This document shows, in pieces, positions 3,975 to 29,491 of a stretch of 64,000 bases of DNA (its first letter is position 1; each line of letters begins with the position of its first letter). Source of the DNA: a phage. Location of the stretch: NCBI GenBank assembly GCA_032430995.1, contig GCA_032430995.1_3952.1. One strand, given 5' to 3'. A model generated the notes under the pieces. It made no database searches. It saw nothing but the letters and a program-made list of their open reading frames with translations, and was not told the DNA's origin. The position numbers were made by a program, and so were the translations under genes.

Positions 3975-4523
3975 ATGAAGAAATTGATTCTAGGTTTGTG
4001 CTTAATGTTTACAGCACACTTATCTTATGCAGTTGACTGCCCAGAGCTATCAATTAGCCAAAAAGTAAACATGTTAAAAGCTTACCAGTATGGTGAGAAT
4101 AACATGGGTAAAGGTTGGGGTATCACTCTAGCAGCTATAGCCTTACAAGAGTCAGAGTTAGGTCTGAAGGTAGAAAATAAAAAGACCCATGACTACGGTA
4201 TCTTCCAGAATCACTTGAAGACTGTTGTAAAGCGTAACAAAATTAGTCCTAATGTTGCTAAAAAGAAACTCTTAAAAGATTTTGACTATGCCGCAAAAGA
4301 AACACATAAAGAGCTTGAGTTTTGGACGAAGGTGCATGGTCACCCAAAGTCAAAGAAGACTTTACAAAAAGTTTTAGCATCATATAATGCTGGGTATTCG
4401 TACAGAATCCCTAAAGCTAAGAAATATTCTCAAGATGTCTATAACAACATGAAAGTTATTGCTCAATGTGAATTTGCAACAAACATTTCTAAGGTAAACC
4501 ATGAAAAAATTAAAAAAGTCTGA
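3975..4523 (+). CDS. secreted lytic transglycosylase-like protein (SLT domain)
   Basis: N-terminal signal peptide; ALQESELG ... DYGIFQ resembles the SLT catalytic-Glu motif. Confidence 0.5.
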   Translation: MKKLILGLCLMFTAHLSYAVDCPELSISQKVNMLKAYQYGENNMGKGWGITLAAIALQESELGLKVENKKTHDYGIFQNHLKTVVKRNKISPNVAKKKLLKDFDYAAKETHKELEFWTKVHGHPKSKKTLQKVLASYNAGYSYRIPKAKKYSQDVYNNMKVIAQCEFATNISKVNHEKIKKV

Positions 4524-5196
4524 TGAAGTCCTGTGCCACGCTTATGACTTACATCCTCATGAGTTAGGTCTTGATTCCTGTGTATGGACTCCAGAACAGT
4601 GCAGGGATTTTGAAGACACTGCAAGAGAAGTTGTATGTTCACTTGAAGAGTTCCACACATCAGAACCCATTGTGAACGTTGTGGACAAAGAGACCGGACA
4701 AACTATAGGTGTAAGACGTGACAGTTTAGTCATAGTCAATAAAGACCTTGTAGAAAAAGGTAACCTCATCTTAGCAGATATTGATGGTGTTCTTACAAAT
4801 TTTAATCACGAAGATTGCTCAACGGAATTGACTGATGGGTCATTCTCACAGTACACTAATCTTCTTGACTCTGTAAGAGCAAAACCAACGTATGTTTTTA
4901 GTATTATTGATGCAATTGCTAATCATGCTGCCATTGGACTCTTGACAGCGAGAGGTGAATCTCAGAGAATACCTACTGAGATGTTTTTAAGGCATAACAT
5001 AGAGCATGATTACATGCTTTTTATGCGTGGTTTTGGAACTAACTCTATAAGTGCAGAAAGTTTAAAAGTGAGGATGATTCAGTCTTGCATTCTTCCTTAT
5101 TTTAATATAGTATGCTTTATAGAAGATACAGAGAAGAATGTTCAGAAGGTAAACAGAATCCTTCCACACATTAAAACCATGTTAGTTAAACATTGA
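4501..5196 (+). CDS. HAD-superfamily phosphatase, 5'(3')-deoxyribonucleotidase-like
   Basis: motif ILADIDGVLTNF resembles HAD motif I (DxDGV) of nucleotidases. Confidence 0.4.
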   Translation: MKKLKKSDEVLCHAYDLHPHELGLDSCVWTPEQCRDFEDTAREVVCSLEEFHTSEPIVNVVDKETGQTIGVRRDSLVIVNKDLVEKGNLILADIDGVLTNFNHEDCSTELTDGSFSQYTNLLDSVRAKPTYVFSIIDAIANHAAIGLLTARGESQRIPTEMFLRHNIEHDYMLFMRGFGTNSISAESLKVRMIQSCILPYFNIVCFIEDTEKNVQKVNRILPHIKTMLVKH

Positions 5197-5672
5197 GAGA
5201 AAAACTTATGAACAATATCATTACGGTAGCACTGGACGATACGGCAAACAAATCTGAAGTAGTTCGTAAAATGATTCAAGGTAACTTTGAAGGTAAAATT
5301 TTCCGTGCTGTTAATGTAAAAGCTGATGGCAGTATTCGTGAATACCGTGCATTGTTGAATGTTAAAAAGCACGTAAAAGGTGCTGGTTCAACGACTGCAC
5401 ACAAAGAAAACCTGATGACTATCTATGATATGGGTAAGGCTTCAGAGTTAGGTGCTGAAGGTATCGTTAAAGAAGGTGCTCCGTATCGCTCTTTCAATCT
5501 GGAAACTACTCTTATGCTTTCCTTTACGAGTGGTTCTAAAACAATCACTTATCTCTTTACTGATGCTGCAACGGTATCTGCTATTAAGGATAGCACTGTC
5601 AAAGCTGGCGTAGTTGCTGCTGCAAAAGCTTCTTCGATGGCTGCAAATATCCTTGCTAAAGTCCTCGGTTAA
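5193..5672 (+). CDS. hypothetical protein
   Basis: 159-aa ORF, start overlaps upstream stop, terminator downstream. Confidence 0.55.
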   Translation: MREKLMNNIITVALDDTANKSEVVRKMIQGNFEGKIFRAVNVKADGSIREYRALLNVKKHVKGAGSTTAHKENLMTIYDMGKASELGAEGIVKEGAPYRSFNLETTLMLSFTSGSKTITYLFTDAATVSAIKDSTVKAGVVAAAKASSMAANILAKVLG

Positions 5673-5724: not shown

Positions 5725-6072
5725 ATGACATTTAAAGAGTTCTGTCAAGCTACTTTCATAATTGTTTTCTTAGTTGGGGCAGGTGTCTGGGGAGGATACT
5801 CTTACAGAGACTACCAAGTTGCTGAAGCTGAGTTAAGCAATGAGAAACTAATAAGTGTTGCTAAAGATGCTTATCAGGAAGGTTTAGCCACACTGAGCAC
5901 CAATTACAAAAATGATTTGAAAGATGTGCTTGCTAAGAATAAGCATACAAAAGAGGTACTAACATATGAAAAAACTAAGCCAGAGTTTTATAATGTTTGT
6001 GTTACTGATAATTATGTCAGGGTGTTCAACGAACAAAGTGAACAGTACATTCAAAAACTCCCAAGTAAGTGA
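5725..6072 (+). CDS. membrane-anchored protein (N-terminal TM helix, coiled-coil-like)
   Basis: 115 aa; hydrophobic N-terminus FIIVFLVGAGVWGG; 3' end overlaps a lipoprotein ORF in +1 frame. Confidence 0.5.
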   Translation: MTFKEFCQATFIIVFLVGAGVWGGYSYRDYQVAEAELSNEKLISVAKDAYQEGLATLSTNYKNDLKDVLAKNKHTKEVLTYEKTKPEFYNVCVTDNYVRVFNEQSEQYIQKLPSK

Positions 6073-8309: not shown

Positions 8310-8381
8310 GAAACTCTGTAGAATATTCACAATAGACTAAGCCTTTCTTATCTGGTAAATTTTTCAGGTAAGGAGGGCTTT

Positions 8382-8563
8382 TTCATTTCAGAATTGTGCA
8401 GGTAGAGTTCTGTAGAGAAATCTGTAGAGAGAATTTTGAACTCCAAAGAGAAAATTCATTTTCAAACTGTGCAGGTAATCTCCAAAGAGCTTTTTCATTT
8501 TCAAAACGTGCAGACCCCGCTCAGGTCGGGCAAGAAAAATCATTTTAGAATTGTGCAGGTAGG
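8382..8563. repeat. four direct copies of a 22-23 bp repeat (TTCATTTTCARAAYTGTGCAGGTA)
   Basis: copies at 8382-8404, 8456-8478, 8495-8516, 8540-8563; followed by C/CT-rich tract 8585-8618. Confidence 0.7.
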
Positions 8564-8737
8564 TTTTTATAGACAGCCAGCCCAACACCTCTCCCCCTCT
8601 TACTCCCCCTCTCCCCAAAAGTCAATAGAAAAATTTGTAGCGGATTGAAAAATAATTCTTGATTTGCGTTCTGTTTTGTGGTAGTCGTGTGCGCACGTTT
8701 CATTACAGTTTTTCCAAAAATATTTTTAAAATTTTTC

Positions 8738-8829
8738 TTGACTCTTTGAACGGGGTTATCTAGTATTTGCATCAACGGGGAGGGAATGACCTTCCCCACT
8801 AAATAAAGTCCTAAACTGGAGATTCAAAA
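8738..8829 (+). promoter_or_regulatory. early promoter + 5' stem-loop + conserved leader cassette (type A)
   Basis: TTGACT-17-TAGTAT, hairpin GGGGAGGGAATGACCTTCCCC, leader CCACTAAATAAAGTCCTAAACTGGAGATTCAAAAATG. Confidence 0.6.
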
Positions 8830-9210
8830 ATGGCATACCGTGCACCTAAATTCATCAACAAAGACAACTTTCGCAACGCACTGGAGAAGTCACTTGATGA
8901 GAATTTTAAAGGTAACGTTATTGTTGTTCACTCGTTCAATTTCAAGTATGATATTAACGGGAATAAAATCAACCATTACACGGCGACAATGCTAGATGGT
9001 ACTCTTTCAAGTGAAAAAGCCATTTTACATGCACTTGCTGGACGTGGTAAAAACCTGATAAGATGCGATAAGAGACGTTATCAGGGTGGCGCATATGGTT
9101 ACGATGATGCTGTTTATCATCTTGAAAATATGGGCTATCAAGTAGAAAAAGCTGGAGTGTCTCAAATAATCGGTAGTGATGGTTATGTAACAATCTTCAA
9201 AATTAACTGA
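8830..9210 (+). CDS. hypothetical protein (cassette gene)
   Basis: 126-aa ORF directly after conserved leader. Confidence 0.6.
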   Translation: MAYRAPKFINKDNFRNALEKSLDENFKGNVIVVHSFNFKYDINGNKINHYTATMLDGTLSSEKAILHALAGRGKNLIRCDKRRYQGGAYGYDDAVYHLENMGYQVEKAGVSQIIGSDGYVTIFKIN

Positions 9211-9298
9211 TAAAGTACTTTACAAGGGGCTTATAGTTCGATAAAGTAAGCCCCAGATAAAGAGCTTTACCACTAAATCCTAAATTGGAGATTCAAAA
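9211..9298 (+). promoter_or_regulatory. stem-loop + conserved leader cassette (type B)
   Basis: hairpin GGGGCTTAT...ATAAGCCCC then conserved leader ...CCTAAATTGGAGATTCAAAAATG. Confidence 0.5.
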
Positions 9299-9589
9299 AT
9301 GGCTACTATCAAAAACGTTGTAATTCCTGTAAAAACTCGTGATGACGCTCGCATCATGGCGAAAAAGTTAGGCGGGAAAGTGGTTGACAACGGAAAACAA
9401 TCTGCTGTAAGATGGGGTGTGAAGGCTGATAAACAGTTGAAGTTAAAAAATTCACCAATAAATCTTTTTACATGTGTAAACACTATCGGAAAGACAAATG
9501 TATACACGAAAAAGGCATATATTAGACGCGTAGCCTTAACATCTCCAATTCGTACAATGAGAGGTTATGCAAAGCTGAAAATTAGCTGA
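9299..9589 (+). CDS. hypothetical protein (cassette gene)
   Basis: 96-aa ORF after conserved leader. Confidence 0.55.
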   Translation: MATIKNVVIPVKTRDDARIMAKKLGGKVVDNGKQSAVRWGVKADKQLKLKNSPINLFTCVNTIGKTNVYTKKAYIRRVALTSPIRTMRGYAKLKIS

Positions 9590-9677
9590 TAAAGTACTTT
9601 ACAAGGGGCTTAAAAGTTGGTATCTTAAGCCCCAGATAAAGAGCTTTACCACTCAATCCTAAACTGGAGATTCAAAA
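9590..9677 (+). promoter_or_regulatory. stem-loop + conserved leader cassette (type B)
   Basis: hairpin GGGGCTTAAAAGTTGGTATCTTAAGCCCC (9-bp stem) plus conserved leader. Confidence 0.5.
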
Positions 9678-9974
9678 ATGAAATTATCAAATAAAGTTCG
9701 TGAAAATCTAAGCAAATTACTCAACAAAATTGATTTCATTGAAACATCAAGAAATAGCCATGATGTTATGGAATGGTTACACGGCAAAATAAAAGGTCGT
9801 CGTGTAGTGATTTGCTTATGGAATAGTTGCAGGGAGTATAAAAAACCTGTATTGCAAGTCAATATCTATGATGATACTTTTAAAAGCCCTGTAAAGTCTA
9901 AAAGTGATTTATTAGAATCCTATGAGATAACTGTAAATGGCAAAGTATCAAGTAAAGAGGAAACACCATGTTAA
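9678..9974 (+). CDS. hypothetical protein (cassette gene)
   Basis: 98-aa ORF after conserved leader. Confidence 0.55.
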   Translation: MKLSNKVRENLSKLLNKIDFIETSRNSHDVMEWLHGKIKGRRVVICLWNSCREYKKPVLQVNIYDDTFKSPVKSKSDLLESYEITVNGKVSSKEETPC

Positions 9975-10300
9975 TGACTGGTATCACTGCAATCATTGCC
10001 ATTTTCGCGCTATATAAGGCATATAAAGCCTATAATCTAGCAAATAAGGCAATCACACAGCAGGTTAGCAATAGCCTTGTAGAAAGCTTTCTAGGGCGTC
10101 TCAGTGATGAGCAAATAAAGCGGTTAGAAATGAGCTTCAGATTCAAAGCGAAAACCTATCAGATAAGTGACATCTTCAAGGATGATTTCCAGTTAGTCGA
10201 TGATTATAATTCTCTGATAAATGCTTTAAATATCAGTGACTTAAAAGACTACTACGCTGTAATTGTTCAAGAGTTGAGCAAACGAAAACAAAACTGTTGA
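9968..10300 (+). CDS. hypothetical protein with N-terminal hydrophobic segment
   Basis: 110-aa ORF overlapping upstream stop. Confidence 0.5.
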   Translation: MLMTGITAIIAIFALYKAYKAYNLANKAITQQVSNSLVESFLGRLSDEQIKRLEMSFRFKAKTYQISDIFKDDFQLVDDYNSLINALNISDLKDYYAVIVQELSKRKQNC

Positions 10301-10389
10301 CACTGATTTTTAGATAGATTAAATTACACATCAACGGGGAGGGAACAACCTTCCCACTAAATAAAGTCCTTAAACTAGGAGATTCTAAA
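10297..10389 (+). promoter_or_regulatory. early promoter + stem-loop + leader cassette (type A)
   Basis: TTGACA-17-TAAATT, hairpin GGGGAGGGAACAACCTTCCC, conserved leader. Confidence 0.6.
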
Positions 10390-10662
10390 ATGTATACTAC
10401 TAACAATGGCCTCACTTTGAACGTCACACTACGTCACTATGTAGATGGTGTCATGCACTTTGAAGATTTACAAGCTGAACAACATATCTTAGATTGGCAA
10501 GTCGCAGGACTCCAAAAAACTGCTACGGGATACGGTAAAAAGATTCCAACTAGTTGGAAAGTTCACTATGAAGGACGTTTGCGCAGAATTTATCAAGATG
10601 TGCAAAGCAATAGCGCATCGAGTTACATTATAGTAAAAGGTGAAAAACTGCATTTAGTATAA
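10390..10662 (+). CDS. hypothetical protein (cassette gene)
   Basis: 90-aa ORF after conserved leader. Confidence 0.55.
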   Translation: MYTTNNGLTLNVTLRHYVDGVMHFEDLQAEQHILDWQVAGLQKTATGYGKKIPTSWKVHYEGRLRRIYQDVQSNSASSYIIVKGEKLHLV

Positions 10663-10747
10663 AGTACTTTACATGGGGTTTAAAAGTTGGTATCTTAAGC
10701 CCCAGATAAAGAGCTTTACCCCTAAATCCTAAATTGGAGATTCAAAA
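10660..10747 (+). promoter_or_regulatory. stem-loop + conserved leader cassette (type B)
   Basis: near-identical copy of the 9590-9677 element. Confidence 0.5.
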
Positions 10748-11152
10748 ATGGCTATTAATAATCGTGAGTTATCAATCTTAAAAGCACGTTTAACCGTTAA
10801 TCGAATCAATGTTATCACGTCATCAGCACCAGACGAGACATTACACAACATTATCGGGAAGATTCAAGGTGTTATCTTAGACGTTGAGAATGTAAAAAAC
10901 TCATTAGCAGACGTTGCAGCAGGTGTTACACTAGACGGCGCACAATATGAAATGATTGACATGTTAGGCAAATCAAAGGTTATGAATAAAGAGTTAGACT
11001 TAAAAATGTTTCGATTTGCCGTGAAAGTATGGCTATCTGTCGAGTATGATGCTAATTTTGCAATTGCTGATTTCTTTGCCACTTGGTTGCAACGTAACTT
11101 AACAAATCATGATTTTCGTGATATCTGTGATGCAATTTACGCAGAACTTTAA
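10748..11152 (+). CDS. hypothetical protein (cassette gene)
   Basis: 134-aa ORF after conserved leader. Confidence 0.55.
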   Translation: MAINNRELSILKARLTVNRINVITSSAPDETLHNIIGKIQGVILDVENVKNSLADVAAGVTLDGAQYEMIDMLGKSKVMNKELDLKMFRFAVKVWLSVEYDANFAIADFFATWLQRNLTNHDFRDICDAIYAEL

Positions 11153-11160
11153 AAATTTTA

Positions 11161-11252
11161 TTGACACTGATTTTTAGATAGACTAAATTACACATCAACG
11201 GGGAGGGAACAACCTTCCCACTAAATAAAATCCTTAAACTAGGAGATTCAAA
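11161..11252 (+). promoter_or_regulatory. early promoter + stem-loop + leader cassette (type A)
   Basis: TTGACA-17-TAAATT, near-identical to the 10297 copy. Confidence 0.6.
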
Positions 11253-11795
11253 ATGAAATGCTTTCACGGTACTACTCAAGAAAACTTTATCAACCTGATT
11301 AATAACGGTGATAAACCATCAGGTGTATGGAATTGTTCGGATATGGACGGCAATTTTTACGTGTACCCAGAAAATAAACTCTATGGTGATGATGAGGAAG
11401 AGATAGCATCGGAAGGTATCCAGCAAGCTCTAGGAAATGCCACTATCACGGCAGCTTTTCAGATGAAAACTCAAAATATTGTTATCTTAGAACTTGACAT
11501 TCCAGAGGATGAGCTAAATGATGATTATTCTTGTGATAACATGTCAAATATAGCAAGCTTTACAGAGTACTTTGATGTAAATTGGATTAAAAAGGTCTAT
11601 ACAACAGAGTTCAACGCTATGTATTCACCTTTTTGTCTCCCTTCACTGGATAACCCAAATTTGAATTATCTTGATGAAACATTGGAGCTACTTGCTAAAA
11701 GTATCCAACAATCCGACAGTATTCAGGTTTTTTGTGACATCATGGATACACTGACAGAAAACATTGTAGAGAGTGATTTAAAGGTCTTTTTCTAA
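11253..11795 (+). CDS. highly acidic hypothetical protein
   Basis: 180 aa; by eye about 34 Asp+Glu versus about 8 Lys and no Arg. Confidence 0.55.
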   Translation: MKCFHGTTQENFINLINNGDKPSGVWNCSDMDGNFYVYPENKLYGDDEEEIASEGIQQALGNATITAAFQMKTQNIVILELDIPEDELNDDYSCDNMSNIASFTEYFDVNWIKKVYTTEFNAMYSPFCLPSLDNPNLNYLDETLELLAKSIQQSDSIQVFCDIMDTLTENIVESDLKVFF

Positions 11796-11861
11796 AAACC
11801 TATACATTCACCTTATAAACACTGATTAACCCCTTACAGGGGCTTTTAGAGGGCTTAAATC

Positions 11862-12095
11862 ATGCTTACAACCATTTATCTCATCCTTTCTATCTGTAAC
11901 GGTCATTCATGTGACTTTAAAGGGCTTGAAGAGTTTACAGGAAGTAAAGAAAATGCTATTCAGGTTTGCCAGATAGCAAGACAAGACTATCCCGCCAGTG
12001 ACGACATTCAATGCTACTTTAAGACAGAAGATGAAGACGGCATCTATTTTGACAGCGTTGACGGTCAATATGAAATTATCATTGAAAAAGACTAG
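11862..12095 (+). CDS. hypothetical small protein
   Basis: 77-aa ORF. Confidence 0.4.
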   Translation: MLTTIYLILSICNGHSCDFKGLEEFTGSKENAIQVCQIARQDYPASDDIQCYFKTEDEDGIYFDSVDGQYEIIIEKD

Positions 12096-12186
12096 ACAAG
12101 CCTGATAAAAGTCTGTAAATTACACATCAACGGGGAGGGAATGACCTTCCCCACTAAATAAAGTCCTTAAACTAGGAGATTCAAAA
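12093..12186 (+). promoter_or_regulatory. early promoter + stem-loop + leader cassette (type A)
   Basis: TAGACA-17-TAAATT, hairpin GGGGAGGGAATGACCTTCCCC, conserved leader. Confidence 0.55.
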
Positions 12187-12528
12187 ATGGCTTATGTAAC
12201 CGTAATTACCGATAAAGCTGGCTCATCTTGGTCAACTCAGGTTAGTGATAAGATGTCGCCTATGCAGTGCCTAAAATACTTTGAGCAGTGGAACAAAGGC
12301 GAGGATGTAAGCCCCTTTCAAGTGATGCAAATCATCCATACAGATAACGAAGGGAATAAAACGACCTTGAACAGTGAATACTACGCAAGCCGTTTTGAAA
12401 CGAGAAGTAAAACAATGAAGCTTTTACGTGAATCCGGCTATTCTCATATTGCCGCGCTAATCTGGGATGACCTGCTAAAAAGCCAGCGTATCAGCTATGT
12501 AAAACCTGAAAAAATATTCATCAGTTAA
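12187..12528 (+). CDS. hypothetical protein (cassette gene)
   Basis: 113-aa ORF after conserved leader. Confidence 0.55.
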   Translation: MAYVTVITDKAGSSWSTQVSDKMSPMQCLKYFEQWNKGEDVSPFQVMQIIHTDNEGNKTTLNSEYYASRFETRSKTMKLLRESGYSHIAALIWDDLLKSQRISYVKPEKIFIS

Positions 12529-12647
12529 TCAATAACTTACAAAAAACTTTTAAAAAAGTGTTGACAATACCCCTTGACATTGGTAACTTTGTTCGAGGGG
12601 GTTTATCTAAAAGGGATTCACTTAAAAGATTCTTTATAGATAAACTT

Positions 12648-12728
12648 AAAAAATTGCTTGCAATCATCTTCCAAAAACTTTATAGTTTATCTCAAGCAAT
12701 AATGCTTTCCTAAACTGGAGATTCAAAA
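12648..12728 (+). promoter_or_regulatory. sigma70-like promoter plus conserved leader
   Basis: TTGCAA-17-TATAGT then ...CCTAAACTGGAGATTCAAAAATG. Confidence 0.55.
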
Positions 12729-13259
12729 ATGAACAAGTTCAAAGCTATCAACTACATTCGCTCAAATAGTGTCATGTCTAAGCCTGTTAAGGATACCTAC
12801 GAATTTCGTTGCAATGGTGAACACTTTGCTACCATCACCAAATCAAACAACGGGGCTTATTATATCCATCGTCGTAATGTTTCTACGGTTGTAGTTTCTA
12901 ACTTTATGCAAGCTGTAGCGGAACTCCTCCCGCTCTTCTTAGAAAAGTATGCCGTACAGTGTGAAAGTGTTCGTGAATGCACTAAAACAGTGTTAAACGG
13001 TTATCGTATGGCTTACGAGCGCTCTTTAAAGAATCTCAATAAATACTACAAAGCACCGGAAGGCACTTCATCCACAGCCTACGGGGTAGGGGGCTTCAAT
13101 GTCAGCCTTTACGAAGTGGAAGAAATCGAGCTTTATGACCATCGCCCAAATGGTTACGCTAAGACACTGGGAGAGGGGTTAATGCTGAATATCAAGAACT
13201 TAGAAAAAACTTTAAGAGAAATTGAAAAAGATATTGACGAGACAATCAAAAATCTGTAA
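12729..13259 (+). CDS. hypothetical protein (cassette gene)
   Basis: 176-aa ORF after conserved leader. Confidence 0.55.
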   Translation: MNKFKAINYIRSNSVMSKPVKDTYEFRCNGEHFATITKSNNGAYYIHRRNVSTVVVSNFMQAVAELLPLFLEKYAVQCESVRECTKTVLNGYRMAYERSLKNLNKYYKAPEGTSSTAYGVGGFNVSLYEVEEIELYDHRPNGYAKTLGEGLMLNIKNLEKTLREIEKDIDETIKNL

Positions 13260-13327
13260 ATTGTCAATCAACGGGGGGGGGGGGTAACCTGCCCCACTAA
13301 ACAAAATCCTAAACTGGAGTTATCAAG
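13234..13327 (+). promoter_or_regulatory. early promoter + stem-loop (with G12 tract) + leader cassette
   Basis: TTGACG-17-TAAATT; hairpin position carries a 12-G run at 13273-13284. Confidence 0.5.
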
Positions 13328-13591
13328 ATGGAAAACGTAGAATTAACCACACTATTGCAGATTGCAACTGACAAAGAAGACGTAGCGTTGTTTCACCGTA
13401 TCGAAAGTGATTTGTTCAATGGTGAAATCATTAAAGAATCTTACGAAGTTGTCGGATTCAAAGATGGTAAAGCATTTGGCTTTTTTGACCTCGACAAAAG
13501 CAAAGCGGTTACAATGTACGATGTTCTATCTTGTGAAATTCTGACAAAATACAACGAAAAAAGGCTTGCAACCTACGCCAATATGCAGTAA
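13328..13591 (+). CDS. hypothetical protein (cassette gene)
   Basis: 87-aa ORF. Confidence 0.5.
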   Translation: MENVELTTLLQIATDKEDVALFHRIESDLFNGEIIKESYEVVGFKDGKAFGFFDLDKSKAVTMYDVLSCEILTKYNEKRLATYANMQ

Positions 13592-13658
13592 ATTACTAAT
13601 CAACGGGGAGGGAATGACCTTCCCACTAAACAAAGTCCTAAACTGGAGAATCTAAATT
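13566..13658 (+). promoter_or_regulatory. early promoter + stem-loop + leader cassette (type A)
   Basis: TTGCAA-17-TAAATT, hairpin GGGGAGGGAATGACCTTCCC, conserved leader. Confidence 0.55.
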
Positions 13659-13907
13659 ATGTCAACTATCCGCGTAACTGTTAATGCTTATGGCTGCCAT
13701 CAACTTGATGCAAAATTCGATATCGGTGGAACAGATAACACCTTTGACCTTATCAAAATGCTGATTCAGCAGGTGATACCAGATTATAACCCTACTGATG
13801 ACTTCTGGAAAGATGCCGTAAAAGAAGCCATAAACGAGGAATCTCACTACCATTATTGGGGTGACTTGATTATCTCTCTGTACTACAGCAAACAAGGTTA
13901 CAACTAA
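13659..13907 (+). CDS. hypothetical protein (cassette gene)
   Basis: 82-aa ORF. Confidence 0.5.
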   Translation: MSTIRVTVNAYGCHQLDAKFDIGGTDNTFDLIKMLIQQVIPDYNPTDDFWKDAVKEAINEESHYHYWGDLIISLYYSKQGYN

Positions 13908-13917
13908 TCGACGCAGC

Positions 13918-13970
13918 GGGGCTAAATAGCCCCAGATACCTGAAAAGCTCCTTCTCATAGGGGCTTTTTT
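13918..13970 (+). terminator. terminator region closing the plus-strand cassette block
   Basis: GGGGCTAAATAGCCCC hairpin, then GGGGC followed by T6. Confidence 0.5.
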
Positions 13971-13974
13971 ACGT

Positions 13975-15540
13975 CTATAAAGAGACTCTATACAGTCCCT
14001 TTCCTTTCCTTCCTAGAATCTATCCCACTAATTCGATAGAGACTATCTCATACCTTAAAAAGCAATAACTCTATAGTCTACTCTATAACCTCTTATCAAA
14101 TTAACTTAAATAAAAGCCCATAACCCGAAAGGGAAGGGCAACCACTAAAACGCTCTATAAAGCTCTATAACAACCTTATCAACCTAACTTAAGCAATCAT
14201 ATTAACCCACTCTAAAAAGCCCTTTATAGAGCTTCCTATAGCCTTAAAAGAATCTTATAAGGGTGTAGCCTTATAGGCTGGCTAGTATCTTGTGAATAAC
14301 TAAACAATCCCTTGATAGTCTCTAAAAAGTATGTTATAGGGGCTGTTAAGTTACTTTGAAGTTACGTGATAGATAGCTTAAAAGTTACGTAAATGCTAGC
14401 CCCCTTAACATTTTCTTAACAATTTCTTAACAATCCCTACATAGTTATGCTTTTAAGGCACTTGTTAGCAACTTGTTAGCCCCTTGTTAAATCTCTGTTA
14501 AGACCACGTAAAAGCCTTGTAAGAGTCTTTAGCATAGCCTTTAAAGCCTCTGTAAAGCCCTATAAAGAGGTGTCTGTATAGTTGGGGTGTAATTACTAGG
14601 AAGAGACTTAAAAGAGCTTACAAGGAGCTATAGAGAGCTTTTAAGAGGGCTATTTAGAGAATCACTAAGAGGGAAAGGGAACGATAAGAAAAGAGATAGT
14701 GACCATGTTAATAGCTTGTTAAAAAGATTAAACACTTGTTAGGAACTTGTTAATTATCCCTACAAAATAACTCTTTAAAATTAACTTGTTAGCTCTCGTT
14801 AGTTATCTGTTAAGATTCTATAAAGACTATTCAGCACTTGTTAGAAAACTGTTACAGCCTTGTTAGTTCTGTTAAGAATCTGTTAAGACTTTTGAAGGGT
14901 TGTTAAGAGCTTGAGAGAGTTGTTAAGAGATTGTTAAGGATATTTTAAAATTTTGCAAAGTACTTGTAAGGGAGCTGTTAAGGGCTACCAAGCAGATATA
15001 CATCTTCTACAGATATTTTTCAGTTCCTTCAAAGACCCTAAAAAATGACTTGATAGTCCTATTTTATAAAAATTTTAAAATTCTGAATAATTACCTAGAC
15101 AGTCTTTTAAAAATACAGGTAGAAACAGGCTTATAAGATACCTTGTTAGTACCGTGTTAGACCTTGTGAGATAAGGTCTGTAAAGATATTCCTGTTAAGT
15201 TTGTTAAAACAGTCTATATAGAGGCTTAGTATTTCCTAGTGAACACCTATAGAGGGTAACATAGCTAACCTAGAGATTAAGAGGTGTATAGGAGCTTCTA
15301 AGAGGGTGTAGAGAGATGGTTAAGGTGATTGTATAGGTTGTTAAGAAGGCTTGTTAGAAGAGTGTTTAGAGGGGCTATACAGAGGGGCTATTAAGACCAC
15401 TAGATAGATACTAAGATACTATATAGTACTATATAACTATATAGAGAGTAAGATTAAGAAGGTTGTTAAGAAGGGTAGATATTTTATTCACATATGATGG
15501 TGACCCAGCGGTTGGGACAACCGATAAATTTTATAAAAAT
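13975..15540. repeat. ORF-free region dense in degenerate short repeats
   Basis: no ORF of 60 aa or more in any frame; more than 20 copies of CTTGTTAG / TTGTTAAG / CTGTTAAG and CTATAAAG / CTATAG words; AT-rich tandem TACTATATA copies near 15410-15445. Confidence 0.7.
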
Positions 15541-15565
15541 TAAAAAGCCCCCGATTAAGGAGGCT
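15541..15565 (-). terminator. minus-strand terminator after ORF 15577..16200
   Basis: A5 then GCCCCC-GATTAA-GGAGGC hairpin on plus strand (hairpin plus T-run on minus). Confidence 0.5.
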
Positions 15566-15576
15566 CTTAAGATATT

Positions 15577-25481: not shown

Positions 25482-25558
25482 CTCTGTTTAGCTCAGCTTG
25501 GTAGAGCGTTCCGTTTGGGGCGGTAAGGCCGGAGGTTCAAGTCCTCCAACAGAGACCA
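25482..25558 (+). tRNA. tRNA-Pro (anticodon TGG)
   Basis: hand-folded cloverleaf; acceptor CTCTGTT/AACAGAG; T-loop TTCAAGT; CCA encoded. Confidence 0.7.
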
Positions 25559-25565
25559 AATTAAT

Positions 25566-25643
25566 GTTCCAGTGGACAAAATGGTAAAGTCACCACTCTT
25601 TCAAAGTGGATATTTGAGGGTTCAAATCCCTTCTGGAACGCCA
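25566..25643 (+). tRNA. tRNA-Glu (anticodon TTC)
   Basis: acceptor GTTCCAG/CTGGAAC; anticodon stem CCACT/AGTGG; CCA encoded. Confidence 0.7.
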
Positions 25644-25733
25644 GTTTTGACAGAAGACCAATTACAGCAAACTTAATCTACTCATCTGAAAGTTAATCGG
25701 ACAAAGAAGATATTTGGTCTGGTCATTAAGAAT

Positions 25734-25810
25734 TGCGGGTATAGAGAAAGGGCGTCTCACATGTCTCATTAGCATGGTATCGGCAGGTTCGACTCCTGCA
25801 CCCGCCTCCA
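25734..25810 (+). tRNA. tRNA with CAT anticodon (Met or Ile-lysidine), atypical
   Basis: T-arm GCAGG-TTCGACT-CCTGC; anticodon loop CTCATTA; 1:72 mismatch and 3-bp D-stem. Confidence 0.45.
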
Positions 25811-25893
25811 AATTTACAGAAGACCGTTTACAGCAATATTTATTAAATTTTTAGCGGAAAAATTGAAAGATACGGTCTGGTAATACTAAACAT

Positions 25894-25970
25894 GGTTAGG
25901 AAGCACATAAGGTATGTGCGGTCGCCTGTTAAGCGAATGGCACAGGGTTCGAATCCCTGACTAACCGCCA
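25894..25970 (+). tRNA. tRNA-Asn (anticodon GTT)
   Basis: T-arm CAGGG-TTCGAAT-CCCTG; anticodon loop CTGTTAA. Confidence 0.6.
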
Positions 25971-26039
25971 AATTTAGGAGAGAAGCGATTGCTCACCGAT
26001 TTGTAAGGTGCAAGTCCTTAGCCTGAATAGAAATCAAAT

Positions 26040-26127
26040 GTGTCGTTATCCCGTAGATGGTAGCGGTGGGGACTGTAAATCCCTTGTCATTGAGACTCGG
26101 TAGGTTCGACTCCTACACGGCACACCA
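26040..26127 (+). tRNA. tRNA-Tyr (anticodon GTA), class II
   Basis: long variable arm; anticodon loop CTGTAAA; T-arm GTAGG-TTCGACT-CCTAC. Confidence 0.65.
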
Positions 26128-26133
26128 AATAAA

Positions 26134-26211
26134 GGTTATGTAGTTTAATCTGGTTAAAATACTCCCCTGTCACGGGAGATGATGAGGGTTCAAATCCCTT
26201 CGTAACCGCCA
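26134..26211 (+). tRNA. tRNA-Asp (anticodon GTC)
   Basis: anticodon stem CTCCC/GGGAG, loop CTGTCAC. Confidence 0.7.
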
Positions 26212-26359
26212 ATTTTGAGAGGGCTATTTAGCCCCTCCCTTAAAGGGTTCTTACGAGTATTCTTTAAAGGAGCAGAAGACCAAATACAGCAAGTTATTTA
26301 AAATTTCAAGCCAATTTAATTTTGAAAAATTTAAAACTTGGTCTGGCTCAACAAATTTA

Positions 26360-26491
26360 CAGAAGACCGTTTACAGCAAAACTTAAACAATCTATTTCTC
26401 CGGTAAAGAAAAGGCGAAGGTTCGATTCCTTCACTCGGCAGATGTCGAGTTGGTGTAATGGTAGCACTTAAGATGATAAACAACGGTCTGG
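26360..26491 (+). ncRNA. candidate structured RNA with orphan tRNA-like T-arm (Y-RNA/YrlA-like hypothesis)
   Basis: flanked by AGACCGT / ACGGTCT arms; contains GAAGG-TTCGATT-CCTTC T-arm (26416-26432) without a full cloverleaf. Confidence 0.3.
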
Positions 26492-26640
26492 TAATTATCT
26501 TTGTAGATAAGTTATTAAGCTTACCTGTGAGTATGCGACCACAAAGGGTGAAAGGGTAAATTCTAGATTTAAACCCAAAAAGGCACATCGCTACAGACCT
26601 TAAGCAAGTCTGGGTAGCTTATCTACAAAGATAATTTAAT

Positions 26641-26716
26641 GGAAGTGTAGCAGAATGGTGATGCGGCAGACTTTTAATCTGACAGGCGATGGGTTCGAAT
26701 CCCTCCACTTCTACCA
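26641..26716 (+). tRNA. tRNA-Lys (anticodon TTT)
   Basis: acceptor GGAAGTG/CACTTCT; anticodon loop CTTTTAA; weak T-stem. Confidence 0.55.
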
Positions 26717-26794
26717 AATTCACCCTTAACTGAGAAACACCTGCGCGGCTGGAAACACCCACTCAACAGTTTCTCTAACTAGGGTACTTATTCT

Positions 26795-26871
26795 GGTTCA
26801 GTCGCAGATAAGGTAATGCAAGGGTCTCATAAGCCCTATGAATGTGGGTTCGATTCCCATCTGAACCTCCA
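26795..26871 (+). tRNA. tRNA-Met (anticodon CAT)
   Basis: acceptor GGTTCAG/CTGAACC; anticodon stem AGGGT/GCCCT, loop CTCATAA. Confidence 0.65.
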
Positions 26872-26872
26872 A

Positions 26873-26948
26873 GCTGGTATAGTTAAGAAGGTTATAACAC
26901 TCCCCTGATAAGGGAACATCGGTGGTTCGATTCCACCTACCAGTACCA
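26873..26948 (+). tRNA. tRNA-Ile (anticodon GAT)
   Basis: T-arm GGTGG-TTCGATT-CCACC; anticodon loop CTGATAA. Confidence 0.65.
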
Positions 26949-26963
26949 ATTTCAATAAAGTTG

Positions 26964-26992
26964 TTGACATTGAGATGTGACTACTTTATAGT
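26964..26992 (+). promoter_or_regulatory. internal sigma70-like promoter within tRNA array
   Basis: TTGACA-17-TATAGT. Confidence 0.55.
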
Positions 26993-27194
26993 AACCTTAG
27001 TTTTCGTTGCGTAGCGTCTATTTTGCAAATTTAAAATAAATGCAAACGACAATGTTTTTCTGGCAGTAGCTTGATAGGCTAAACACCAGTGAGGTCTTCC
27101 AATCCCTCATCAAAGAATTTGGCGTACTCGCCCACGGTATGATTAATAAGGTGGGCATCTTTAAGGGCTTTCTAAGAGAGTCTTTAAAGATAAT

Positions 27195-27271
27195 GCACCC
27201 TTAGTTCAATTGGATAGAGCAACGGTCTTCTAAATCGTTAGTTACAGGTTCGAATCCTGTAGGGTGTACCA
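27195..27271 (+). tRNA. tRNA-Arg (anticodon TCT)
   Basis: D-arm GTTCAATTGGATAGAGC; anticodon loop CTTCTAA; T-arm ACAGG-TTCGAAT-CCTGT. Confidence 0.7.
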
Positions 27272-27413
27272 AATAGTTAGCAGATTACTTAGACGGCCTT
27301 AGCGGGTCTTCCTGTAGGGAGGTGGTCTGTATCTCATGTTTTCCAGAACATGTAAATAATCTGAGAAGGAGCTTGACAGTGTTGAGATAACAGGGTAAGC
27401 TTCGAATTATAAT

Positions 27414-27496
27414 ATGGGACGATGTTAAGACTCTAAGGCATGAGCAACGGCCTCCAAAACCGTTTCAAAGGGGTTCAACTCCTCCGTCCCATGCCA
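27414..27496 (+). tRNA. tRNA-like gene, possible Trp (anticodon CCA), atypical D region
   Basis: acceptor ATGGGAC/GTCCCAT; loop CTCCAAA; D region about 6 nt longer than canonical. Confidence 0.35.
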
Positions 27497-27509
27497 AAGT
27501 CTTATTAGG

Positions 27510-27597
27510 GGTAGGTAGCGGCTAATGGTAGCCAAACTGTCTTGAAAACAGTTGCCACTGTAGAGATACGGTGAGGGTTCGACTCCTTTACTTACCG
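27510..27597 (+). tRNA. tRNA-Ser (anticodon TGA), class II
   Basis: anticodon stem ACTGT/ACAGT, loop CTTGAAA; long variable arm; no CCA encoded. Confidence 0.65.
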
Positions 27598-27853
27598 CCT
27601 AATAAGATTTACTCCGTCCATGCTTGTTCGCATTGTCGGTTTATCCCTCGTGTATTGTCGTACACTGTCAAAGCACCTAGTAGGTGTCACGGAGAAGAGA
27701 TAATATCAAGCTCTCCAAAGGTTCTAGTCACCGGATTAAACAAGACTATGCAAAGACCTATTTAGGTCTTTTTAGAGGGCTTCTAAGGTTATTAGTCGCT
27801 TGTTGTGGAACCTTGTTGCTTAGGTTCTTAGAAGTTCTCTAAAAAGATTTAAT

Positions 27854-27931
27854 GGGAGATTGACGGTAATTGGTAAACCTACCATCCTTAGAAGTTGGTG
27901 TTTGAGGGTTCGAATCCCTTGTCTCCTACCA
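27854..27931 (+). tRNA. tRNA-like gene, anticodon uncertain (best fold gives TAG)
   Basis: acceptor GGGAGAT/GTCTCCT; T-arm GAGGG-TTCGAAT-CCCTT; anticodon stem has a mismatch. Confidence 0.4.
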
Positions 27932-27938
27932 AATTAAT

Positions 27939-28014
27939 GCAGGTGTAGCAAAATGGTTATGCGGCTGACTCTTAATCAGTAAGACGATGGGTTCAATTCC
28001 CTCCACCTGTACCA
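27939..28014 (+). tRNA. tRNA-Lys (anticodon CTT)
   Basis: anticodon stem GCTGA/TCAGT, loop CTCTTAA; T-arm similar to Lys(TTT) copy. Confidence 0.5.
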
Positions 28015-28020
28015 AACATT

Positions 28021-28096
28021 GGGGATGTAGTTTACATGGTTAAAACATAAGTTTTGCAAACTTAAGTACAGGGTTCAATTCCCTGCTTCTCCACCA
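28021..28096 (+). tRNA. tRNA-Ala (anticodon TGC)
   Basis: D-stem GTTT/AAAC; anticodon stem TAAGT/ACTTA, loop TTTGCAA. Confidence 0.6.
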
Positions 28097-28102
28097 ATTA
28101 GT

Positions 28103-28177
28103 GCATCCATAGTTTAAACGGGAAAATTACAGTCTTCCAAACTGAGGTTGAGGGTTCGATTCCCTCTGGATGCTCCA
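28103..28177 (+). tRNA. tRNA-Gly (anticodon TCC)
   Basis: acceptor GCATCCA/TGGATGC; loop CTTCCAA; T-arm GAGGG-TTCGATT-CCCTC. Confidence 0.65.
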
Positions 28178-28183
28178 AACAAT

Positions 28184-28260
28184 GCTGCTTTCGTATAATT
28201 GGCTATTACACATCCCTTGTAAGGATGGAAATGCAGGTTCGAGTCCTGTGAGCAGCACCA
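28184..28260 (+). tRNA. tRNA-Thr (anticodon TGT)
   Basis: anticodon stem CATCC/GGATG, loop CTTGTAA. Confidence 0.7.
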
Positions 28261-28356
28261 ATTCAGAGGTCAAGTGAAAGACCGCTTTGAGTCAACTGAA
28301 GACCGTAACAAATACCACGGAGTTGAGTTAGCGGCACAACTTCAGACCTCTTTCAT

Positions 28357-28431: not shown

Positions 28432-28432
28432 T

Positions 28433-28510: not shown

Positions 28511-28515
28511 ATTTT

Positions 28516-29489: not shown

Positions 29490-29491
29490 AT

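What the first reader, a model, noticed from the sequence alone, without database searches (positions are those of the whole stretch)
8738..13960. Array of 12 small genes each preceded by a near-identical promoter / stem-loop / leader cassette
Ten upstream regions share an almost identical about 40-nt leader ending CCACTAAAT(A)AAGTCCTAAAYTGGAGATTCAAAAATG, preceded by one of two conserved hairpins: type A GGGGAGGGAA-TGAC-CTTCCCC (six copies, five with a TTGACA-like -35, 17-nt spacer and TAAATT or TAGTAT -10) and type B GGGGCTTAA ... TTAAGCCCC (three copies). This closely resembles the promoter-early stem-loop cassettes that flank rapidly exchanged accessory genes in T4-type phages. Such hyperplastic blocks are where host-takeover and anti-defense genes typically accumulate.
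Basis: partly seen in the sequence, partly recalled or inferred. Interest (0 to 1): 0.65.

Follow-up and report, generated by a model that had tools for sequence, protein, structure and literature searches.

The report
Promoter-hairpin-leader gene cassettes, Felix-O1-like phage
A Felix O1-like phage places the same short control module (host-type promoter, RNA hairpin, shared ribosome-binding leader) in front of ten of twelve small genes near one genome end, and related phages gain and lose single genes at these modules, much like the regulatory cassettes known from T4-type phages.

Summary
In window 8737-13661, ten of twelve + strand genes are preceded by a repeated cassette: six type A, three type B and one hairpin-less remnant. 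Profile searches find no copy elsewhere in the window or in the rest of the Felix O1 genome.

The window is a Felixounavirus. The block corresponds to Felix O1 ORF14-23 and ends about 490 nt before the region that forms a 613-bp terminal repeat in two relatives.

- **Type A:** -35, 17 nt, -10 (TAnnnT), ATCAAC, G/C hairpin, leader.
- **Type B:** a TTTACA-17/18-TAnnnT promoter-like site lies inside a roughly 20-bp RNA hairpin. TAnnnT is present in 101 of 101 copies, and the hairpin shows compensatory changes and + strand G·U pairs.

All cassettes end in the same leader, TCCT(T)AAACT(A)GGAGATTCAAAAATG. Between relatives, single genes come and go, and the junctions fall in this leader.

Best reading: self-contained early-expression cassettes whose shared leader also serves as a recombination site. 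They behave like T4-type PeSLs but are built differently, because the hairpin lies inside or after the promoter and has no U-tract.

The repeats were already listed as plain "direct repeats" in the Felix O1 paper and the wV8 record. Promoter activity and the hairpin's role are inferred, not shown. New variant of a known kind; moderate interest.

The parts
8339..8386 (+). Intrinsic terminator closing the upstream unit (Felix O1 't13'); left limit of the block
   Evidence: 17-pair stem plus T-run; same sequence as t13 in Table 2 of PMC3185647
8737..8829 (+). Type A cassette before g1: -35 TTGACT 8738-8743, -10 TAGTAT 8761-8766, CATCAAC 8770-8776, hairpin 8777-8797, leader 8798-8829
   Evidence: (hairpin in an MFE of -17.9 kcal/mol)
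8830..9210 (+). g1, 126 aa, phrog_4495, unknown function
9206..9298 (+). Type B cassette before g2: extended hairpin 9211-9269 (upper stem 9226-9254), embedded TTTACA 9219-9224 / TAAAGT 9242-9247, leader 9270-9298
   Evidence: (-25.1 kcal/mol, z -4.1)
9299..9589 (+). g2, 96 aa, phrog_5089, unknown function
9584..9677 (+). Type B cassette before g3: extended hairpin 9590-9648 (upper stem 9605-9633), TTTACA 9598-9603 / TGgTATCTT with -10 at 9621-9626, leader 9649-9677
9678..9974 (+). g3, 98 aa, unknown function
9968..10300 (+). g4, 110 aa, hydrophobic N-terminus; its start overlaps the g3 stop (translational coupling); no cassette
10296..10389 (+). Type A cassette before g5: -35 TTGACA 10297-10302, -10 TAAATT 10320-10325, hairpin 10336-10355, leader to 10389
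10390..10662 (+). g5, 90 aa, unknown function; a shorter paralogue occurs as an extra cassette in relatives
10656..10747 (+). Type B cassette before g6: extended hairpin 10660-10718 (upper stem 10675-10703 with a U·G pair), TTTACA 10668-10673 / TATCTT 10691-10696
10748..11152 (+). g6, 134 aa, unknown function
11160..11252 (+). Type A cassette before g7: -35 TTGACA 11161-11166, -10 TAAATT 11184-11189, hairpin 11200-11219
   Evidence: junction of the wV8 indel at 11228-11255
11253..11795 (+). g7, 180 aa; predicted ADP-ribosyltransferase-like fold; N-terminal FHGT motif
11830..11849 (+). Weak terminator-like hairpin CCCCTtacAGGGG plus CTTTTAG before g8; not a cassette
   Evidence: z -0.6, not distinguishable from shuffles; annotated as a terminator in wV8
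11862..12095 (+). g8, 77 aa, unknown function; always travels with g7
12093..12186 (+). Type A cassette before g9: -35 TAGACA 12093-12098, -10 TAAATT 12116-12121, hairpin 12132-12152
   Evidence: indel junction at 12168-12187
12187..12528 (+). g9, 113 aa, unknown function
12658..12728 (+). Degenerate cassette before g10: TTGCAA 12658-12663 / TATAGT 12681-12686, no hairpin, only the last 23 nt of the leader (12709-12731 including ATG). Relatives have a full type A here
12729..13259 (+). g10, 176 aa, unknown function
13233..13327 (+). Type A cassette before g11: -35 TTGACG 13234-13239, -10 TAAATT 13257-13262, variant hairpin 13273-13295 with a run of 12 G
13328..13591 (+). g11, 87 aa, unknown function; absent from several relatives
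13565..13658 (+). Type A cassette before g12: -35 TTGCAA 13566-13571, -10 TAAATT 13589-13594, hairpin 13605-13624
13659..13907 (+). g12, 82 aa, unknown function; last gene of the block
13918..13970 (+). Type-B-like remnant hairpin GGGGCTAaatAGCCCC plus AGATA (13918-13938), then the real intrinsic terminator 13943-13970 (Felix O1 't23' equivalent); right limit of the block
   Evidence: (-27.4 kcal/mol, z -3.7)

Best explanation
The block is an array of self-contained early-expression cassettes in a Felix O1-like phage (subfamily Ounavirinae). It sits next to one physical end of the genome.

Each intergenic cassette supplies three things:
1. A promoter for the host sigma-70 RNA polymerase.
2. 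A G/C-rich hairpin that forms in the + strand RNA.
3. A common A/U-rich leader with a GGAG Shine-Dalgarno sequence 8-9 nt before the ATG.

In type A, the hairpin would begin about 3-6 nt after the predicted transcription start. It would therefore cap the 5' end of the cassette's own mRNA, and it would also sit at the 3' side of the upstream cistron in read-through RNA.

In type B, the promoter spacer and -10 lie inside a roughly 20-bp interrupted hairpin. Only read-through RNA folds this hairpin. The predicted start is the A just after the hairpin.

I infer that the hairpins protect and delimit the short mRNAs. They would act as a 5' cap against 5'-end-dependent decay, as a 3' barrier to exonucleases, and, for type B, possibly as an RNase III-type processing site. 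I infer that the uniform leader gives every inserted gene the same strong translation start.

Because the 25-40-nt leader is the one segment shared by all cassettes, homologous recombination between leaders deletes, inserts or swaps units. Each unit consists of one ORF plus the promoter/hairpin that follows it.

Shown here: the anatomy, the conservation pattern, hairpin covariation, confinement to one block, and leader-bounded indels.

Inferred: promoter activity, early timing, the role of the hairpins, and the recombination mechanism.
For: Anatomy and restriction to one block:
- No copy was found in Felix O1 50-86 kb.
- Type A-like sequence occurs in 246 phage records at about 5.8 places each. 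Type B-like sequence occurs in 289 records, including 29 Erwinia phages.

Promoter signature:
- Type A, 101 copies in 59 versions: T1, A2 and T6 of the -10 carry 2.0 bits and the TTG of the -35 is conserved. Most spacer positions are variable (13 of 17 carry 0-0.5 bits; two reach 1.3 and 1.6). The 17-nt spacer was fixed by the parsing, not measured.
- Type B: CTTTACA is invariant. TAnnnT lies 17 nt (96 copies) or 18 nt (5 copies) downstream in 101 of 101 copies, with 14 different hexamers, although it sits in the hairpin loop and 3' arm.

RNA hairpins:
- Every window copy folds.
- Type B on 51 distinct versions: 97.1% of cells pair, 7 pairs show changes on both sides, and the covariation score is 0.235 against 0.090 for shuffles (0 of 500 reach it). 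Slid registers collapse to 34-58% paired.
- Examples of paired changes are GGGG/CCCC to GGTG/CACC and G-C to U-A in the lower stem.
- Frequent U·G and G·U pairs would be A·C mismatches on the other strand.
- About 45 type A hairpin variants all fold, at -5.6 to -15.9 kcal/mol.

Modular exchange:
- The gene-order table shows single-gene presence or absence on a conserved backbone.
- 68 of 87 homology boundaries, and 19 of 30 distinct ones, fall inside cassettes that cover 17.6% of the block (p = 3e-8).
- Successive alignment pieces overlap by 20-28 nt of leader.
- Cassette type follows the upstream gene family in 125 of 126 cases, against 134 of 144 for the downstream gene.

Timing:
- End-point RT-PCR in Felix O1 put ORF16, 20, 21 and 22 of this block at maximum 5 min after infection (PMC3185647).

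Position:
- A 613-bp exact terminal repeat in two relatives maps to window 14399-14989, about 490 nt after g12.
Against: - No transcript 5' ends, half-lives or reporter data exist for any of these elements. The promoters are consensus matches only.
- Felix O1 RT-PCR put ORF14, 17, 19 and 23 of the same block at 25 min, so timing is not uniform. The assay was crude.
- Type A -10 hexamers (TAAATT) match only 4 of 6 consensus positions.
- Type A stems are low-complexity (purine arm, pyrimidine arm) and slip in register, so they give little clean covariation.
- Copies are related by descent and probably by gene conversion. The covariation counts therefore overstate the number of independent events.
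- Invariant bases beyond what pairing needs (ATCAAC, CAGATAAAGA) suggest an additional, unidentified constraint.
- A hairpin 3-6 nt from the 5' end is at the edge of the range reported to stabilise E. coli mRNA (own knowledge: Emory, Bouvet and Belasco 1992).
- The backbone gene order is conserved across genera, so exchange is limited.
Confidence: 0.65

Rival explanations
1. The hairpins are transcription terminators or attenuators, as shown for PeSL stem-loops. They would insulate each gene from upstream read-through, and the adjacent promoter would restart transcription.
For: - PeSL stem-loops are also GGGG...CCCC-type and terminated transcription in lacZ fusions (PMC2839356).
- WebGeSTer called the type A hairpins 'rho-independent terminators' in the ASO1A record.
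- The type B hairpin lies upstream of its predicted start, so it could stop upstream transcripts without affecting its own.
Against: - Neither type is followed by a U-tract. Type A is followed by ACTAAATAAAG and type B by AGATAAAGAG.
- The consensus terminator scan flagged none of them, whereas both ends of the block carry canonical terminators.
- The type A hairpin lies downstream of its own -10, so it would also terminate its own transcript a few tens of nt after the start.
Confidence: 0.2
2. The conserved sequences are DNA-level or RNA-level binding sites for a dedicated phage factor. Candidates are a repressor that shuts off the whole block, a RegA/RegB-like RNA-binding protein or nuclease that acts on the common leader, or a recombinase. 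Expression signals would not be their only role.
For: - Invariant bases exceed pairing needs: ATCAAC before every type A hairpin, and CTTTACA and CAGATAAAGA in type B even in Erwinia phages.
- The two lower-stem halves of type B are each near-palindromes (TAAAGTACTTTA, TAAAGAGCTTTA), like operator half-site pairs flanking the promoter.
- Every leader carries GGAG, the motif cut by T4 RegB (own knowledge).
- Only two leader forms occur among 101 copies, with no mixed forms.
Against: - The lower-stem covariation (G-C to U-A, 81 against 11, with 5 mismatches) links the two distant halves and breaks each palindrome. This favours the long-range RNA pairing.
- No candidate regulator was identified.
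- No antisense copy of the leader exists elsewhere in the window or in Felix O1 50-86 kb.
Confidence: 0.12
3. The repeats are selfish or neutral mobile repeats (MITE-, REP- or integron-attC-like) that spread between genes without serving expression.
For: - The repeats are short, include an imperfect inverted repeat, number 8-13 copies per genome, and are associated with gene-cassette gain and loss in a one-directional array.
Against: - Every copy has the same orientation and is placed exactly between a stop codon and the next ATG, and it contains that gene's Shine-Dalgarno sequence.
- None lies outside this one block.
- No integrase, transposase or attC-type R/L boxes were seen.
- The promoter hexamers are conserved while the spacers vary.
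Confidence: 0.03

Closest known systems
PeSL (promoter-early stem-loop) cassettes of T4-type phages RB49/phi1, PST/T4, nt-1/KVP40 (Arbiol et al. 2010, PMC2839356; Comeau et al. 2014, PMC4122927)
   Same: - Short composite intergenic repeats with a sigma-70-like promoter, a GGGG...CCCC-type stem-loop, and a Shine-Dalgarno sequence plus ATG.
- Clustered between small genes of unknown function.
- Indels between close relatives have junctions inside the repeats.
   Different: - PeSL order is stem-loop, AT-rich region, -35, -10, SD, ATG, with the stem-loop acting as a terminator. Here the hairpin lies after the -10 (type A) or encloses the spacer and -10 (type B), and it has no U-tract.
- Here there is a much longer invariant leader (about 30-40 nt).
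- There are two interleaved cassette types.
- All copies lie in one block next to the terminal repeat, in a different phage subfamily.
- Mini-circle formation was not tested.
Host-takeover module of Bacillus phage SPO1 (Stewart et al. 1998; own knowledge)
   Same: - A terminal-region cluster of about two dozen very small early genes of unknown function.
- Many closely spaced strong host-type promoters and strong ribosome-binding sites.
   Different: - The SPO1 module lies inside the terminal redundancy. Here the block ends about 490 nt before it.
- SPO1 promoters are not embedded in near-identical hairpin and leader repeats.
- No sequence relationship.
RNase III processing hairpins between phage T7 early genes (Dunn and Studier 1983; own knowledge)
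   Same: - Type B is an intercistronic, roughly 20-bp hairpin interrupted by internal loops, between small early genes.
- A cut in the 3' side of the internal loop would leave a protective 3' hairpin on the upstream mRNA.
   Different: - T7 sites carry no embedded promoter and are not repeats of one sequence.
- Cleavage here is untested.
5'-terminal stabilising stem-loops of E. coli mRNAs, such as the ompA 5' UTR (Emory, Bouvet and Belasco 1992; own knowledge)
   Same: The type A hairpin would sit within a few nucleotides of the predicted 5' end, upstream of an unstructured ribosome-binding region.
   Different: - The start site is not mapped.
- With a start 5-6 nt upstream, the single-stranded 5' tail would be too long for protection.

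Membership tests
PeSL (T4-type promoter-early stem-loop cassette) | Sigma-70-like early promoter (-35, about 17 nt, -10) directly upstream of an SD and ATG | tested here: met
   By sequence only.: hexamers conserved, most spacer positions variable, spacing 17-18 nt.
PeSL (T4-type promoter-early stem-loop cassette) | Stem-loop located just upstream of the promoter and its AT-rich region, acting as terminator of upstream transcription | tested here: not met
   Position: type A hairpin starts 10 nt after the -10; type B hairpin encloses the spacer and -10. No U-tract follows, and the terminator scan is negative. Terminator activity itself is not testable here.
PeSL (T4-type promoter-early stem-loop cassette) | Concentrated in hyperplastic regions among small ORFans and flanking indels between close relatives | tested here: met
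PeSL (T4-type promoter-early stem-loop cassette) | Host phage is a T4-like myovirus; cassettes dispersed over several hyperplastic regions | tested here: not met
   Felixounavirus; single block only.
PeSL (T4-type promoter-early stem-loop cassette) | Formation of mini-circles by recombination between neighbouring cassettes | not testable with these tools
   Needs inverse PCR on infected cells or virion DNA.
Intrinsic (rho-independent) terminator | G/C-rich hairpin immediately followed by a U-rich tract | tested here: not met
   Only 8339-8386 and 13943-13970 qualify.
RNase III processing site (T7 early-region type) | About 20 bp of mostly double-stranded RNA with an internal loop, in an intercistronic position | tested here: met
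   Type B only: 6 + 5 + 9 pairs with 1x1 and 3x3 internal loops. Type A (7-8 bp) does not qualify.
RNase III processing site (T7 early-region type) | Cleavage by RNase III in vivo or in vitro | not testable with these tools
   Needs comparison of 5'/3' ends in rnc+ and rnc- hosts.
5'-terminal mRNA-stabilising stem-loop | Hairpin within about 0-4 unpaired nt of the primary 5' end | tested here: inconclusive
   The hairpin begins 10 nt after the -10 hexamer, which gives 3-6 unpaired nt depending on the start site. The start is not mapped.
Integron gene-cassette array (attC) | attC imperfect inverted repeat with R''/L''-L'/R' boxes (RYYYAAC...GTTRRRY) and a nearby tyrosine-recombinase integrase | tested here: not met
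   No such boxes by reading. No recombinase appeared in the annotated relatives. No systematic search was run.
Any Rfam RNA family | Match to a curated covariance model | tested here: not met
   only three chance-level hits, none at a cassette.

The most novel reading that the evidence does not exclude
Type B may be a dual-coded element, in which the same 60 nt acts as a promoter in DNA and as an RNase III-type processing hairpin in read-through RNA. Fresh initiation and processing would then yield the same monocistronic 5' end (AGAUAAAG...). In addition, or instead, the invariant leader and ATCAAC/hairpin may form a block-wide handle for a still unknown phage factor that switches the whole terminal gene set off together.
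Probability: 0.15. Interest if true: 0.7.

Novelty: new variant of a known kind. Interest (0 to 1): 0.45.

Why it matters
- Felix O1-like phages are widely used for Salmonella and E. coli typing, biocontrol and therapy. How they time transcription is unknown: the genome paper could not find promoters for this region.
- The cassettes give about ten testable early promoters.
- The 5' and intercistronic hairpin designs are compact and could be reused as expression parts.
- The cassettes offer a simple rule for where accessory genes are swapped, which shows where to look for host-takeover or anti-defence genes in more than 250 sequenced relatives.
- They show that PeSL-like modular shuffling is not confined to T4-type phages, and that it can be built with a different order of parts.

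Tried and rejected
- **IMG/VR scan for type B** (CTTTACA N24-34 CAGATAAAGA): the pattern was too loose. Most of the 120 loci were single chance hits. Only the multi-copy Felix O1-like contigs were used.
- **MAFFT alignment of type B**: it mis-registers the 3' arm of the ATC/GAT variant. I therefore counted pairs on arms anchored at the invariant flanks.
- **The same anchoring for type A:** it fails because the G-run/C-run stems slip by one register. I report folding of each variant instead.
- **A 6-codon mini-ORF in the type A loop** (ATGACCTTCCCCACTAAATAA): rejected, because the ATG is absent from the CAAC-loop variants.
- **Family searches:** Pfam and PADLOC gave nothing above threshold, PHROGs gave only unknown-function families, and Rfam gave nothing.
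- **Linking to the Bas63 gene-essentiality data** (10.1101/2024.10.10.617714): my guessed accession MZ501111 turned out to be Bas51. The equation g7 = Bas63 gp107 therefore remains a guess.
- **The afdb50 fold library** was unavailable.
- **Literature searches** for Felix O1 with promoter/stem-loop, transcriptome, PeSL or VpaE1 found no prior functional description of these cassettes.

Full report
**What the window is.** The 5.4 kb around the finding matches 259 phage records. Almost all are Felix O1-like (Escherichia, Salmonella, Shigella and Citrobacter phages; Felixounavirus). No record covers 80% or more of the query in one piece, so the region is mosaic. It corresponds to Felix O1 ORF14-23. 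It lies between the terminator the Felix O1 paper calls t13 (window 8339-8386) and the equivalent of t23 (window 13943-13970).

**Check of the observation.** Twelve + strand ORFs fill 8830-13907. An alignment of their upstream regions shows three groups.
- Six type A cassettes (g1, g5, g7, g9, g11, g12).
- Three type B cassettes (g2, g3, g6).
- One remnant before g10, which keeps a promoter-like site and only the last 23 nt of the leader.

g4 overlaps g3. g8 follows a weak hairpin that is not distinguishable from shuffled sequence. Exact and near-exact motif searches give 5, 5 and 3 copies where shuffles give none. Profile HMMs built from the copies find nothing else in the 64-kb window at E up to 10, and nothing in Felix O1 50-86 kb, the part of the genome the window lacks. 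The element is therefore real, strictly + strand, strictly intergenic, and confined to one block of the genome.

**Anatomy of type A.** The order is -35 (TTGACA-like), exactly 17 nt, -10 (TAAATT or TAGTAT), four variable bases, ATCAAC, a 7-8-bp hairpin, and the leader.
- The hairpin is GGGGAGGG / CCUUCCCC with one G·U pair and a 5-6-nt loop.
- The leader is ACTAAAYAAARTCCT(T)AAACT(A)GGAGATTCAAAAATG.

Across 101 copies from 23 genome segments (59 distinct promoter versions), T1, A2 and T6 of the -10 are invariant at 2.0 bits and the TTG of the -35 is conserved. Most spacer positions are variable: 13 of 17 carry 0-0.5 bits, and two reach 1.3 and 1.6 bits. That is the conservation pattern of a working sigma-70 promoter. 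The 17-nt spacing in that tally was set by how the copies were parsed, so it is not an independent result.

About 45 hairpin sequence variants occur. All fold, at -5.6 to -15.9 kcal/mol, always with a purine 5' arm and a pyrimidine 3' arm. Because the hairpin starts 10 nt after the -10, it would lie 3-6 nt from the 5' end of the cassette's own transcript. This is an inference, since the start site is unmapped.

**Anatomy of type B.** Folding gives a roughly 20-bp interrupted hairpin (-24.6 to -25.1 kcal/mol, z about -3.6 to -4.1).
- 5' side: UAAAGU-n-CUUUA-nnn-GGGGCUUAA.
- 3' side: UUAAGCCCC-AGA-UAAAG-A-GCUUUA.

In 101 copies, CTTTACA is invariant. A TAnnnT hexamer lies 17 nt (96 copies) or 18 nt (5 copies) after TTTACA in every copy, with 14 different hexamers. 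It sits in the loop and 3' arm, where the hairpin alone would not require it. Type B is therefore also a promoter-like site, folded inside a hairpin.

On 51 distinct versions, with arms anchored at the invariant flanks:
- 97.1% of cells pair.
- 7 of 20 pairs show changes on both sides.
- The covariation score is 0.235 against 0.090 for shuffles; 0 of 500 shuffles reach it.
- Sliding the partner by 1-3 columns drops pairing to 34-58%.

Clean examples are G3-C to U-A in the upper stem (90 against 7 copies, no mismatch) and G-C to U-A in the lower stem (81 against 11, with 5 mismatches). U·G pairs are common (21 and 43 of 51 rows at two positions). These would be A·C mismatches on the other strand, so the structure is selected in the + sense strand, most simply the RNA.

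One caveat applies. The copies are related by descent and probably by gene conversion, so the number of independent events is far smaller than the cell counts suggest.

**Distribution.**
- Type A-like sequence occurs in 246 phage records (1,437 places).
- Type B-like sequence occurs in 289 records (1,388 places), including 29 Erwinia phages.
- In Citrobacter phage Mordin (Mooglevirus) and SUSP2 (Suspvirus) both types are present.
- In Erwinia phage Coenus only the type B promoter/hairpin part is kept, and the leader differs.
- No Rfam family matches.

**Gene gain and loss.** I called ORFs and clustered proteins in 15 relatives. This gives a conserved backbone order: (F18) g1 g2 F13 g3 g4 g5 g6 [g5-like or F21] g7 g8 [F14, F17, F25 or F24] g9 g10 g11 g12. 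Single genes are present or absent on this backbone.
- The window lacks F13 and the g5-like gene.
- Felix O1 lacks g1, g2, g7, g8 and g11.

In blastn comparisons, 68 of 87 internal homology boundaries fall inside cassettes. So do 19 of 30 distinct boundary clusters, or 23 of 30 within 15 nt. The cassettes cover only 17.6% of the block (binomial p = 3e-8). Successive alignment pieces overlap by 20-28 nt of leader.

At nucleotide level, wV8 carries 263-bp and 317-bp insertions relative to the window. Each insertion consists of one ORF plus a type B promoter/hairpin, and each is flanked by the leader (window 11228-11255 and 12168-12187).

Cassette type is fixed by the upstream gene family in 125 of 126 cases, but by the downstream gene in only 134 of 144. 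The exchanged unit is therefore the ORF plus the promoter/hairpin that follows it, and the crossover lies in the shared leader. The exceptions are junctions in or near g3/g4, g8 and g10.

**Position in the genome.** The Ro111lw and SPJ41 records each carry an exact 613-bp direct terminal repeat. It maps to window 14399-14989. The block therefore ends about 490 nt before the terminal repeat, at one physical end of the virion DNA, and its genes are transcribed toward that end. This recalls the terminal early regions of T7, T5 and SPO1 (own knowledge). Which end enters the cell first is unknown.

**What was already known.**
- The Felix O1 genome paper listed a 57-bp repeat (type B) and a 39-bp repeat (the type A promoter) as plain direct repeats. 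It did not include them among its promoters, and it stated that temporal control is not understood (PMC3185647).
- The wV8 GenBank record marks DR_1 to DR_9 over the same sites, but the wV8 paper does not discuss them.
- The ASO1A record annotates a "promoter" followed 10 nt later by a WebGeSTer "terminator".
- Mordin marks 14-bp repeats and ribosome-binding sites.
- I found no paper that reads these as composite cassettes or links them to gene exchange.
- Felix O1 RT-PCR placed ORF16, 20, 21 and 22 at maximum 5 min, and ORF14, 17, 19 and 23 at 25 min.

**Mechanism.** The best-supported reading is an array of autonomous early-expression cassettes.
- Promoter function rests on the conservation pattern (confidence about 0.75).
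- The leader as a common translation start rests on the invariant GGAG with 8-9-nt spacing in an A/U-rich, unstructured context (about 0.85).
- Leader-mediated homologous exchange rests on the junction data (about 0.8).
- The hairpins' role is the weakest step (about 0.5).

For the hairpins I favour mRNA protection and delimitation. They are selected as + strand structures, they lack U-tracts, and type A sits downstream of its own promoter. This argues against the terminator role shown for PeSL stem-loops. Type B has the size and internal-loop layout of T7-type RNase III sites. A cut in its 3' internal loop would give nearly the same 5' end as initiation from the embedded promoter. That possibility is interesting but untested.

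Invariant bases beyond pairing needs (ATCAAC, CAGATAAAGA, and the two near-palindromic lower-stem halves) leave room for an unidentified binding factor.

**Comparison with known systems.** Functionally the closest system is the PeSL of T4-type phages. Membership fails on the defining order of parts, on terminator character, and on phage group, so I call this a PeSL-like variant rather than a PeSL.

**Verdict.** This is a new variant of a known kind, of moderate interest.

Noticed in passing
window 14399-14989: This stretch corresponds to an exact 613-bp direct terminal repeat carried at both ends of the Ro111lw and SPJ41 records. The physical genome ends of relatives therefore lie here, and the window is a collapsed or permuted version of the genome. 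The cassette block ends about 490 nt before it.
   Followed up: partly
window 13970-15570: A 1.6-kb non-coding region between convergent units is packed with the 7-mer YTGTTAR. It holds 24 + strand and 2 - strand copies, which is 26 of the 95 in the whole 64 kb. Some copies are spaced 11 nt apart (14462, 14473, 14484, 14495). The same spot in 13 of 15 relatives holds 21-31 copies; Coenus has 17 and SUSP2 only 7. Most copies lie in or next to the terminal-repeat equivalent, so this is a candidate packaging, replication or protein-binding array.
   Followed up: partly
window 8383-8562: Four direct repeats of about 23 nt (TTCATTTYnRAAnTGTGCAGGTA at 8383, 8456, 8495 and 8540) lie just after terminator t13 and before the first cassette. 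They occur nowhere else in the window. Two to four copies sit at the same place in 12 relatives. A C/T-rich tract follows at 8588-8617. Function unknown.
   Followed up: partly
[not shown]
   Followed up: partly
window 13273-13284: The g11 cassette hairpin has a run of 12 G in place of GGGGAGGGAA. The same cassette in relatives has ordinary arms. It could be a slippage-prone tract or a sequencing or assembly artefact.
   Followed up: no
window 13918-13938: A type-B-like remnant (GGGGCTAaatAGCCCC followed by AGATA) with no leader or gene after it sits just before the real terminator at the end of the block. It looks like the scar of a lost cassette.
   Followed up: no
L006 (ESCO45) 4832-5191 and 5740-5982; L014 (ESCO49) 4015-4347 and 5296-5499: Several GenBank records start block ORFs upstream of, or inside, a cassette. 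They also label small block genes 'prohead assembly scaffold protein', 'tail tube protein' or 'tail assembly protein'. The same families are unknown-function PHROGs here, so these labels look like annotation errors.
   Followed up: no
window 9968-9974: The g4 start (ATGTTAATG...) overlaps the g3 stop by 7 nt. In relatives that lack g3, g4 follows F13 directly. g4 has a hydrophobic N-terminus (MLMTGITAIIAIFALY), so it may be a membrane protein.
   Followed up: no
window 12558-12620: Upstream of the g10 remnant cassette lie two overlapping TTGACA hexamers and an inverted CCCC...GGGG repeat in the opposite order to the cassette hairpins. ASO1A annotates a promoter and a 59-nt 'terminator' at the equivalent site.
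   Followed up: no
window 25482-30765: A cluster of 26 tRNA genes on the + strand. This is ordinary for Felix O1-like phages (Felix O1 has 22).
   Followed up: no
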